Made by a program: the position numbers. Positions 16,101-19,100 of a stretch of DNA of 64,000 nucleotides are shown one piece after another. The stretch is taken from assembly GCF_963853765.1 (NCBI RefSeq), contig NC_088861.1:35526001-35590000 (forward strand). The letters are read 5' to 3'. The DNA is from Magallana gigas (Eukaryota). The stretch's first letter is position 1; each line of letters begins with the position of its first letter.

Positions 16101-19100
16101 ACACAGGTCCTTCTGGAGTCTCTTGGAGATCACAAAGTAATCCAGCCGCCTGTTCACAGAGACAAAAACACAAAAATTAGAAGCAATACAACACAGTTAT
16201 GAAAGCTCTTATAATCATTAACAGGCTATTTATGGTCCAATGTTTTTTTCCTTTTATCCATTCCTCCTTAACAACACCCCACTCACCAGCCAATATTTTT
16301 GGCACGGGCGTTCATCATGTAGGTCCAGAAGGACCAGCAGTCGCGGGCGTTGGGGTAGAGGACGCGGAACGAGTCCAGGAAGCCCTCCTCAAGCAGCTTA
16401 CTGAAGCCCTCCCTCTCCTTGTCCGTGTAGCCCGGCGTCTTGTTCCTGTTGCTGGTCGGGTTCTTTAGATCTGTGTGCAAGGGTAAACTTGAGACAATGG
16501 AAGTAATAGTTAACACACATATATACATGAAGTTGCTAGATGTTGAGGTCTCCACACATTATGATAGAGGACCTGGCACATAGAGTCATTAAAACACTCT
16601 GACACTGCCTGATCATTGAGGTCCGATCACATTATAAATTCATTAACATTCATATACATTCCTACGTGAGTGTGTAACACATTAAGGTCCCCACACAAGA
16701 TGATTTGGGCAATTATTAGACACCTGTCCCTAACAATCGAATACCTACGGGAGTTTGTGACACATTGAGGTCCCAACAATATGGTAGAGGTACATTTTCA
16801 CACATACCTACTGGAGTTACACATTGAGGTCCCCACACATGATTGATTCATTAACACATACCTACAGGTGTGTGTGACACATTGAGGTCCCCACACATGA
16901 TTGATTCAATAACACATACCTACAGGAGTGTGGGACACGTTGAGGTCCCCACACATGATGACTGGCTTCTTGGCGTCCAGCTTCTTTAGGTAATCAGTGA
17001 AGTCGCAGTCCCACTGCTCTGTCCTATACTTCAGACGAACCAAACCTTTACCAGAATTTGGCACATCTGAAATTGATCAAGTTTACTTAAAACAAACACT
17101 AGTATAGCCTTGCATCTATATCTACTACAAAACATATCAACACTTATCATTAAACTTTAAATTATGGTATTTTTTCATTAGTTTACGTTTTAAAACTTTT
17201 TTACAACTAGAATCAAAAAATTCTAAATTCTAAAAAAATGGGCCTAATACAAGGTGCTTATTGCACTGTTCTGGTGAAAGACTCTAAAAACTAATTAAAG
17301 TAATCGAAAGAAAGTTAAGTGTTGAGAAAAAGATTAAGAAACATTAATAAAGGACGAATTACAAAACCAAATACAATCTGTCATTTGAATGTAATCTTAC
17401 ATGCATTCACCATGTAGAAGTCTTCATACTCGGCAGTGATAACCCTCCCTTCATCATCATGCTTGGGAATACCTGTAACAACAGCAACAGTTAAATCAAC
17501 ACCAAATCAGTGCATCGGAATGAGGGATACAAAATACAAAATTGAGTCAGGCCAACATCATTTACATGTAATAATAATCTATATGTTTGATGTACTCCGA
17601 CCCTAATTTTTTCATGGTGGCTAGGGTTGTAGCTCTCTTTTTTTTTGGGGGGGGGGGGGGGGATAATTTTCATTTAACATTTACTGATACAATAACGTTA
17701 TCTAAATGTGTTTTAATATGACATGGACAATCAATTTTTCAAAAAATTCAAATTCAAGATGTTAAATTTTGATGGGTCTGTCGGAATACATAAAACAAAT
17801 CAATTTTAAACTTTGGCCTCAACTTTTCATAATGGAGCACAGTTTTAGATGTCTTAAATACTTTGAAATCTCATATGCACAGTGTCAATATTCAAAGGAA
17901 CACAGATTTTCTAAGATTGTAGTATTCATTAATATAATAGTTATTACGTACATGAAATATAAATTTACATGTACCAGGTACATAAAATATTCATATAATC
18001 ATATTTACGATCAAATGTAACAAAAATATCCCACCCTTTTATAAAAATTTCACACCTGCAGAGGCACAAAAACTTTTGAAATGAAGCTTAAAACTAAAAA
18101 GTTTAAAATAAATGTAAAGTTTGAAATGTACATGCACTTGAAATTCAAATACTGTAAACGTAAGCACTACATTTGGCTGTGCATTCTATTTAGCGGTTTA
18201 GGCAAAATGCAATTACCATTAGAGCTATGCTTATATCACATTCAGGAAAACGCTAATTCAAATCCACGCAAACTTATTCAAAACCTAATTTTGCCAAATA
18301 TCGTACATAATATGTTTATGGTACATAAAATTACAAGTGCCTGTACTTCAAGCTATTTCCTTCCTTTAATGCCCCTATAAGTACATGCAATCTCTCACCA
18401 AGCCCGTAGGTGACCTTGATGGGCTTCTTCTTGCTGTAGAGTCCAGTGCCAGCGTAGCCCGCTTTCTCGGCAGGCGACCAGTAGATGTGGTAGTCCTTGT
18501 CCAGCACCCCCGGGGGTAGCTGATCCTCCTGACACTTGGTCTCCTGTACACATAAGATGTCCGGCGACGACTCCTTGATGTACGACATCTTGTCTTTCTG
18601 GGAAAGGAAGAGAAAGGAACAAAGACTGAATTTAATTTAACTGAGGATCAATAATTCAAACAGACTGAGAAGTTGGATGCCTCCTGAAGGGTCACATATT
18701 GAATAGATGCATATGTTTTTAAAAGAGAAATTACTATCAATTTGACCTTGACCTTCATAAAATTGAACTCTAAGACTATTAAATGTTTAATTTTTACCTT
18801 GACATTTATTGCCACCTAACTGAAAATAATCCGTACAAAAAGACAAATGGATAAATTTTTAAAAATTTTGGGTTTCAACTTTGGCTTTTCCATTTATAAT
18901 TAAATCAATTCAATGTTCAAAAAATCATTTAAATGCATGCATGCATGATGAACAATTTATTTTAGAAATTCTGGTCTAAAGTTAATGCCCATTCACTGAC
19001 CTCAATGACAACAAAAGCTATATGTTCAAAGCACAAGTTCAAGACTTATTTTCTGTCAAAACAATCCAAACACTTACATCATACCACGCCCGGATTCCAT

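What the first reader, a model, noticed from the sequence alone, without database searches (positions are those of the whole stretch)
16535..16962. APEX1 intron holds serial, decaying copies of the catalytic GDLNVSH exon end plus donor
About six ~58-bp copies of the exon 8 end follow the true donor; this segment encodes the equivalents of human Asp210/Asn212. The nearest copy still encodes IMCGDLNVSHTPV exactly and has an identical G|GTATGT donor 58 nt downstream. Using it would read G-M-C-Y-stop. Copies decay with distance from the exon, consistent with repeated duplication from, or conversion with, the exon end. This is a second, independent gene showing the CTU1 pattern.
Basis: partly seen in the sequence, partly recalled or inferred. 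Interest (0 to 1): 0.68.

Follow-up and report, generated by a model that had tools for sequence, protein, structure and literature searches.

The report
Splice-donor minisatellite in oyster APEX1 intron
The last 39 bases of an oyster DNA-repair gene exon, together with its splice donor, have been copied six times head to tail into the following intron, a rare but already described kind of repeat that leaves spare, probably unused splice sites behind the real one.

Summary
On the minus strand an APE1/ExoIII-type gene has an exon ending at 16920 (...IMCGDLNVSHTPV). Its 58-nt junction unit (39 nt of exon, the donor, 19 nt of intron) recurs six times in the 449-nt intron. Identity of the 48-nt core to the exon is 94, 88, 76, 79, 60 and 78% (random 48-mers: mean 46, maximum 62). 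Three donors share the same 11-nt context, at 16919, 16861 and 16807. Reading past the first donor stops after four codons.

This is a boundary-spanning minisatellite, a known kind: human F7 IVS7, IFI6, CBS, and the amphioxus "mirages". The gene is oyster, not human.

- The decay with distance is a trend only (rho -0.71, p 0.11).
- At 3 of the 4 exon/copy-1 differences the exon is the odd one out, so recent conversion is not supported.
- The CTU1 array shows no gradient.

Two CTU1 donor junctions carry the same pattern, one of them new here. That makes 3 of 20 donor junctions against 0 of 20 acceptor junctions.

Donor usage could not be tested, because no RNA data or mollusc genomes were available.

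The parts
16920..17064 (-). APE1-type coding exon (7th coding segment placed) ending ...KKPVIMCGDLNVSHTPV plus the first base of the Asp codon
   Evidence: tblastn of P0001. PDB search aligns it to human APE1 residues 173-216. Pfam PF03372, E 1.3e-4.
16902..16959 (-). Founder unit of the array: 39-40 nt of exon tail, the donor, and 18-19 nt of intron
   Evidence: Reference unit. Part of the TRF array 16741-16959.
16471..16919 (-). Intron of 449 nt. From 16901 to 16515 (387 nt, 86%) it is occupied by the six copies and their spacers.
   Evidence: The junction is confirmed by homologue P0001, which reads ...HTPVDLKNP....
16906..16908 (-). In-frame TGA reached if the first donor is skipped (reads ...HTPVGMCY then stop)
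16844..16901 (-). Copy 1: 54/58 identical to the exon unit, encodes IMCGDLNVSHTPV, and carries an intact pseudo-donor whose first base is 16861
16800..16843 (-). Copy 2: 42/48 identical, has a 4-nt deletion, and carries an intact pseudo-donor whose first base is 16807
16741..16778 (-). Copy 3: 33/38 identical, with a weakened donor (GTATTC)
16648..16701 (-). Copy 4: 45/56 identical, with the donor destroyed (GA in place of GT)
16616..16635 (-). Copy 5: only the first 20 nt are recognisable (16/20), the weakest copy
   Evidence: In one search one of the 2940 null windows scores as high.
16515..16562 (-). Copy 6: 38/49 identical, with the donor destroyed
16286..16470 (-). Next coding exon (DLKNPTSNRNK...NIGW). 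It is not part of the repeat.
   Evidence: PDB search: zebrafish APEX1 E 7.9e-22, human residues 219-280. tblastn.
9743..10267 (+). Same pattern in CTU1. The 16-nt tail of exon 5 (the exon ends at 9758) plus its donor is repeated as 23 units of 22 nt, and 13 of the 23 keep AG|GT.
   Evidence: The junction IVTG|HNADD is confirmed by P0057 and P0065.
9415..9620 (+). Third case. The tail of CTU1 exon 4 (the exon ends at 9438) recurs about every 30 nt in intron 4, as five copies.
   Evidence: TRF row 9459-9521, period 30.

Best explanation
This is a minisatellite whose first unit spans an exon-intron boundary. The type is known from human F7 IVS7 and from the amphioxus 'mirages'.

Inferred origin: a 58-nt piece was duplicated in tandem by replication slippage or unequal exchange. 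The piece holds the last 39 nt of the exon, the donor and the first 19 nt of an originally short intron.

Inferred persistence: because the upstream copy keeps the exon and a working donor, everything downstream is removed as intron and the duplication is tolerated. Further rounds enlarged the intron to 449 nt.

Shown: the copies then drift as neutral sequence. The exon's only CpG is lost in all six copies. There are indels. The donor is lost in copies 4-6 and weakened in copy 3.

Inferred by analogy with F7: the spliceosome uses the most upstream of the three identical donors. Any use of 16861 or 16807 would keep the TGA at 16906-16908 in the message and give a truncated, probably degraded, product.

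The catalytic GDLN motif is repeated only because it happens to lie at the exon end. The copies make no protein.
For: - Tandem structure and exon origin.
- The motif is absent from the rest of the window.
- The copies are out of frame (58 = 3 x 19 + 1) and stop at once. They have no upstream AG acceptor.
- Three donors share an identical 11-nt context.
- A 371-aa homologue 98% identical over this exon (P0001) reads HTPV|DLKNP. That is the junction made by the first donor.
- The same array occurs, with substitutions, in an independent unspliced ORF, P0175. Its exon part is 100% identical. The TGA is TGG there, and copy 2 differs at 4 residues. So the array is not an assembly artefact.
- The intron RNA is not unusually structured (z +1.65; 96 of 100 shuffles fold at least as well) and has no Rfam family above threshold.
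- Two more donor junctions, in neighbouring CTU1, carry the same kind of array.
- Literature. PMC1557585 (abstract and passages read) describes the F7 37-bp minisatellite whose first unit spans exon 7/IVS7. Its identical pseudo-sites stay silent. It lists IFI6 6-16, CBS, LMNB2 and PDGF as further cases. PMC3087553 (passages read) describes the 'mirages'.
Against: - Donor choice was not observed in this species. In IFI6 and CBS the two nearest pseudo-sites are used (passage), so silence cannot be assumed.
- Junction arrays look over-represented. 3 of 20 donor junctions score 39 or more. Only 0.49% of 5304 random intronic positions outside the three families do. Pure neutral chance does not predict that, so a targeted mechanism or selection may be involved.
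- The evidence that relatives carry a copy in the same intron is weak. For P0176, 153 of 2000 shuffles score as well. For P0177, 29 of 2000 do.
Confidence: 0.8

Rival explanations
1. Reader's growth model. New copies are spawned again and again from the conserved exon end, or are converted by it. The youngest copy therefore lies next to the exon and age rises with distance.
For: Identity to the exon falls from 94% to 88% and then to 60-79%. Copy 1 has a single private change in 58 nt, while copies 3-6 have many.
Against: The trend is not significant (rho -0.71, p 0.11) and copy 6 is better preserved than copy 5. At 3 of the 4 exon/copy-1 differences, copy 1 agrees with copies 3 and/or 4 and the exon stands alone. 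Copies 2 and 3 share a derived base, which points to copy-to-copy duplication. In both CTU1 arrays the best copies are distal. Units 11, 14 and 19 are perfect with rho 0.04, and the 23/25 copy lies at 9535.
Confidence: 0.3
2. The reiterated donors are functional. Extra U1 snRNP binding sites could boost recognition of the true donor. Alternatively, regulated use of the pseudo-donors could give unproductive transcripts that tune APEX1 output.
For: Three donor contexts are kept identical over 11 nt. Three of 20 donor junctions and none of 20 acceptor junctions in two neighbouring genes carry such arrays. Pseudo-sites are used in human IFI6 and CBS (passage).
Against: Copies 3-6 have lost or weakened the donor. 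Ten of the 23 CTU1 units have lost AG|GT. The sequence between donors drifts like the rest. No expression data exist here. Identical donors in copies 1 and 2 are expected simply from their youth.
Confidence: 0.12
3. The intron itself was created by the tandem duplication (the Rogers or 'mirage' model of intron gain).
For: 86% of the intron consists of exon-tail copies. The model predicts new introns filled with decaying boundary repeats (PMC3087553, passage).
Against: The coding sequence across the junction has no AGGT that a duplication could have split. The last 44 nt of the intron and its acceptor are not a copy of the unit. The next exon does not start with unit sequence. The unit already contains 19 nt of non-coding spacer, so an intron existed when the duplication occurred.
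Confidence: 0.05
4. The copies are an unrelated dispersed repeat, a transposon fragment, or an assembly artefact.
For: None found. The window is rich in other repeats.
Against: The core motif is found only here in the 64 kb. The copies align with the conserved catalytic exon tail and its donor. They differ from one another, so they are not a collapsed or expanded read pile. P0175 shows the array in an independent sequence.
Confidence: 0.02

Closest known systems
Human F7 intron 7 VNTR (37-bp minisatellite whose first unit spans the exon 7/IVS7 boundary), PMC1557585
   Same: The first unit spans the donor junction. The authentic donor is followed by pseudo-sites of identical sequence. Use of a pseudo-site would disrupt the reading frame. 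Only the most upstream site is used there.
   Different: The F7 unit contains 4 nt of exon; this one contains about 39 nt, including catalytic codons. The F7 units are near-identical and vary in number between alleles. Here only two copies are intact and four are decayed. Donor choice is untested here.
Amphioxus 'mirages' (Adh3, globins BflGb6 and BflGb9, troponin C, PGBD5), PMC3087553 and PMC3902484
   Same: They are minisatellite-like tandem duplications of exon/intron boundaries. Unit lengths are 10-160 bp. They occur in several genes of one genome. Regular splicing is apparently undisturbed. Repeat turnover is typical, with edge units excluded from homogenisation.
   Different: They are described in a cephalochordate, at both 5' and 3' exon boundaries. 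Here the host is a bivalve and only donor-side junctions are affected (3 of 20 donors against 0 of 20 acceptors).
Human IFI6 (6-16) and CBS intron 13 donor-site minisatellites (as summarised in PMC1557585; the primary papers were not seen)
   Same: The donor is reiterated in the intron by a boundary-spanning minisatellite.
   Different: There the two nearest pseudo-sites are used constitutively. Here any such use would meet a stop codon.

Membership tests
Boundary-spanning minisatellite ('mirage' / F7 IVS7 type) | Head-to-tail tandem repeat with a unit of about 10-160 bp | tested here: met
   TRF gives period 58, 3.8 copies. Six copies were placed by alignment.
Boundary-spanning minisatellite ('mirage' / F7 IVS7 type) | The first unit contains the exon-intron junction, so the splice site is reiterated in the intron | tested here: met
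   The unit 16959-16902 spans the junction at 16920/16919. Identical donors lie at 16861 and 16807.
Boundary-spanning minisatellite ('mirage' / F7 IVS7 type) | Normal splicing uses the authentic site and the repeats do not disturb the mRNA | not testable with these tools
   The only evidence is indirect. Homologue P0001 has the junction made by the first donor. No RNA data for this species were available.
Boundary-spanning minisatellite ('mirage' / F7 IVS7 type) | Length or sequence polymorphism between alleles (VNTR behaviour) | tested here: inconclusive
   P0175 carries the same array with substitutions. Copy number in other alleles could not be seen.
APE1 / exonuclease III family (Pfam PF03372) | Endonuclease/exonuclease/phosphatase fold with the catalytic Asp and Asn of the GDLN motif | tested here: met
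   This was tested exon by exon. PF03372 hits 2 of the 6 exon ORFs (E 2.9e-8 and 1.3e-4, the second below the curated cut-off). PDB hits to APE1 have E 5e-13 and 8e-22. D and N align with human 210 and 212. The fold itself was not modelled.
Intron gain by tandem duplication of an AGGT-containing exon segment (Rogers model) | Both splice sites of the intron are copies of one exonic AGGT, and splicing removes exactly one or more units | tested here: not met
   The 3' 44 nt of the intron and the start of the next exon are not unit sequence. The joined coding sequence has no AGGT at the junction.
Recursive (ratchet-point) splice site | Juxtaposed 3' and 5' splice sites (pyrimidine tract, AG|GT) used stepwise in a long intron | not tested
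   Each intact copy has ...CCTGTAG|GTATGT. But the intron is only 449 nt, the sub-introns would be 54-58 nt, and no RNA data exist.

The most novel reading that the evidence does not exclude
Boundary-spanning ('mirage') minisatellites may be a systematic feature of oyster genes, aimed specifically at donor junctions. If so, either exon ends plus donors are preferentially duplicated, or arrays of reiterated U1 sites behind a donor are favoured. Such duplications would then be a main route by which short bivalve introns grow. In this window 3 of 20 donor junctions carry such arrays and 0 of 20 acceptor junctions do. Almost no other local repeats occur in the same 14.6 kb of intron.
Probability: 0.25. 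Interest if true: 0.6.

Novelty: new member of a known kind. Interest (0 to 1): 0.35.

Why it matters
On its own this is an ordinary example of a rare, already described repeat type. It has no bearing on APE1 protein function.

It is useful in two ways.
- It offers a natural test of how an invertebrate spliceosome chooses among three identical donors 58 and 54 nt apart. In mammals this was studied with the F7 minisatellite.
- With the two CTU1 arrays, it hints that junction-anchored repeats are common in this oyster genome. That would bear on how introns lengthen. It would also bear on annotation, since gene predictors can pick a pseudo-donor and truncate the model.

Tried and rejected
- Dispersed repeat: rejected, because the core motif occurs only in this intron within the window.
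- Structured RNA: rejected (z +1.65). The only Rfam match is AfaR at E 0.42, 22 bits against a gathering score of 100.
- Alternative or mutually exclusive exon: rejected, because the copies have no acceptor, hold only the exon tail, and are out of frame.
- Selection on copy 1's peptide: rejected as unnecessary.
- Intron birth by duplication: see the rival explanations.
- Copies in relatives: the read-through tails of P0176 and P0177 are at best suggestive (153 and 29 of 2000 shuffles).
- Other large satellites (44261-44686, 47125-49770): looked at, not obviously exon-anchored.
- The identities were off by one base in register and were redone. The AG|GT count stands.
- The listing of cluster members could not be run.
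- Papers PMC1783408 and PMC2791625 are not held. PMC6905558 proved irrelevant, describing an intron-internal minisatellite.
- The genome-contig collection holds only bacteria and archaea, so I did not scan it.

Full report
**What is there**

Read on the minus strand, window 16029-23500 holds an AP endonuclease 1 (APE1/ExoIII family) gene. I placed nine coding segments by tblastn with the homologue P0001.

All searches were made exon by exon.

- Two of the six exon ORFs hit Pfam PF03372.
- The exon ending at 16920 matches zebrafish and human APE1 structures (E 5e-13) and aligns with residues 173-216 of the 318-residue human chain. Its GDLN therefore corresponds to Asp210 and Asn212.
- The next exon (16470-16286) matches residues 219-280 (E 8e-22 to zebrafish).
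- The closest named proteins are from oysters: Saccostrea cucullata at 89-94%, then Mytilus, Pinctada and scallops.

I take the window for an ostreid oyster, not human. The window has three N runs, which I left untouched.

**The observation**

The exon ends ...IMCGDLNVSHTPV with donor TAG|GTATGTGT. The intron is 449 nt, 16471-16919.

A 58-nt unit is repeated head to tail. It holds 39 nt of exon, the donor and 19 nt of intron. The supporting results:
- TRF finds period 58 with 3.8 copies.
- The repeat finder finds a six-copy family.
- Local alignment places six intronic copies between 16901 and 16515, which is 86% of the intron.

Identity of the 48-nt core to the exon is 94, 88, 76, 79, 60 and 78%. 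For 2940 random 48-mers of the window the mean is 45.6 and the maximum 62. Five of the six copies beat every null, and copy 5 is matched by one.

The core motif occurs nowhere else in the 64 kb.

Copy 1 encodes the same 13 residues. Reading through the first donor gives G-M-C-Y and then a stop. Donors identical over 11 nt sit at 16919, 16861 and 16807. Copy 3 has a weakened donor, and copies 4-6 have none.

**What it is**

This is a minisatellite whose first unit spans an exon-intron boundary. The type is described in print.

- In human F7, a 37-bp VNTR begins with the exon 7/IVS7 junction. The authentic donor is followed by identical pseudo-sites that stay silent. Mutagenesis showed that the most upstream functional site is always chosen (PMC1557585, abstract and passages read).
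- The same paper lists IFI6 6-16, CBS, LMNB2 and PDGF. In IFI6 and CBS the two nearest pseudo-sites are used.
- In amphioxus such boundary duplications are called 'mirages'. They occur in Adh3, globins, troponin C and PGBD5 without disturbing splicing (PMC3087553 and PMC3902484, passages read).
- I found no mollusc report in four searches. The primary amphioxus Adh paper, the Gao and Lynch paper and the Zhuo paper are not held.

**How it most likely arose and works**

These points are shown:
- The copies derive from the exon tail. That tail carries a motif conserved throughout the family, so the direction is exon to intron.
- The copies lack an acceptor and are out of frame.
- They decay like neutral DNA. 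The exon's single CpG (AACG) is TG in copies 1-5 and CA in copy 6. There are also indels and donor losses.
- The intron RNA is not unusually structured (z +1.65) and matches no Rfam family above threshold.

These points are inferred:
- A short ancestral intron was lengthened by slippage or unequal exchange of the junction unit.
- The first donor is the one used. Use of a later donor would keep the TGA at 16906-16908 and give a nonsense transcript.

Indirect support comes from two proteins.
- P0001 is a 371-aa homologue held on contigs of at most 2.1 kb. It reads ...HTPVDLKNP..., the junction of the first donor.
- P0175 is an unspliced ORF from an independent sequence. It is 100% identical over the exon and carries copies 1 and 2 with a few substitutions (TGA is TGG there). 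The array is therefore real and variable.

The claimed decay with distance is a trend only (rho -0.71, p 0.11, n = 6).

The exon unit and copy 1 differ at four sites. At three of them copy 1 agrees with copies 3 and/or 4, and the exon stands alone. So there has been no recent conversion between the exon and copy 1. The perfect peptide of copy 1 is explained by two synonymous changes on the constrained exon lineage and one on the copy.

Copies 2 and 3 share a derived base, which suggests copy-to-copy duplication as well.

Evidence that more distant relatives carry a copy in the same intron is weak. For P0176, 153 of 2000 shuffles score as well. For P0177, 29 of 2000 do.

**The wider pattern**

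CTU1 lies on the plus strand at 4315-13658. The 16-nt tail of its exon 5 (which ends at 9758) plus donor is repeated as 23 units of 22 nt.
- 13 of the 23 units keep AG|GT.
- The perfect copies are units 11, 14 and 19, and there is no gradient (rho 0.04).

A third case is new. The tail of CTU1 exon 4 (which ends at 9438) recurs about every 30 nt, five times. The best copy (23/25) is the fourth.

I scanned all junctions of the two genes with one score.
- 3 of 20 donor junctions reach 39 or more. The other 17 score 23 or less.
- None of the 20 acceptor junctions scores above 17.

For comparison, 0.49% of 5304 random intronic positions outside the three families reach 39, giving a binomial P of about 1e-4. 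With the arrays themselves included, 4.2% of 5767 positions reach it, giving P = 0.05.

This test is post hoc. The threshold was chosen after seeing the scores, and the junctions are placed to within a few bases. It does suggest that junction-anchored arrays are not rare in this genome.

**Verdict**

The feature is real and correctly described. It is a new example, in a bivalve, of a known kind of repeat. It has no consequence for the APE1 protein.

The serial-spawning and conversion reading is not established. Which donor is used, and whether relatives share the copies, stays open, because no RNA data, mollusc genomes or cluster look-ups were available.

Of the 143 long ORFs found in the window, I sent 101 to Pfam. 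I left out those over N runs, those inside satellites or low-complexity runs, and overlapping or already searched ones.

Noticed in passing
window 9415-9620 (+): The tail of CTU1 exon 4 plus its donor recurs about every 30 nt in intron 4, as five copies (15/18, 22/24, 14/16, 23/25, 20/25).
   Followed up: yes
window 19503-21896: A 1.88-kb direct duplication lies inside an APEX1 intron. 19503-19802 equals 21385-21684 (100%), and 19818-20018 matches 21696-21896 (98%). It brackets a 368-aa minus-strand ORF (20318-21421) with no Pfam hit. It is either a recent tandem duplication or a mobile element with long direct repeats.
   Followed up: partly
window 47125-49770 and 44261-44686: Two large satellites are present: 30 nt x 88 copies and 32 nt x 13 copies. 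Both units contain CAG|G-like motifs, but no adjoining exon was evident. The second lies just after an N run.
   Followed up: partly
window 4315-23500: CTU1 (+) and APEX1 (-) are convergent neighbours. The best named homologues of both, from Saccostrea cucullata (P0065 and P0002), are listed with the same longest-contig length of 91829. This suggests the pairing is conserved.
   Followed up: no
window 25691-26764 (+), 32579-34288 (-), 56177-59460 (-), 45510-46001 (+), 29386-29760 (+): Other coding regions found by Pfam: an ankyrin-repeat/SOCS-box protein, a B-box/NHL (TRIM-like) protein, an IAP-like protein (BIR domains plus a RING), a DUF7869 fragment, and a ShK domain.
   Followed up: no
window 35992-36221: A 112-nt unit is repeated 2.1 times at 99% identity, which points to a very recent tandem duplication.
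   Followed up: no
CTU1 exon 3 search: Many short proteins (74-98 aa, P0056 and P0058-P0064) are 98-100% identical to this CTU1 exon. They look like ORFs called on unspliced contigs of the same or a sister species.
   Followed up: no
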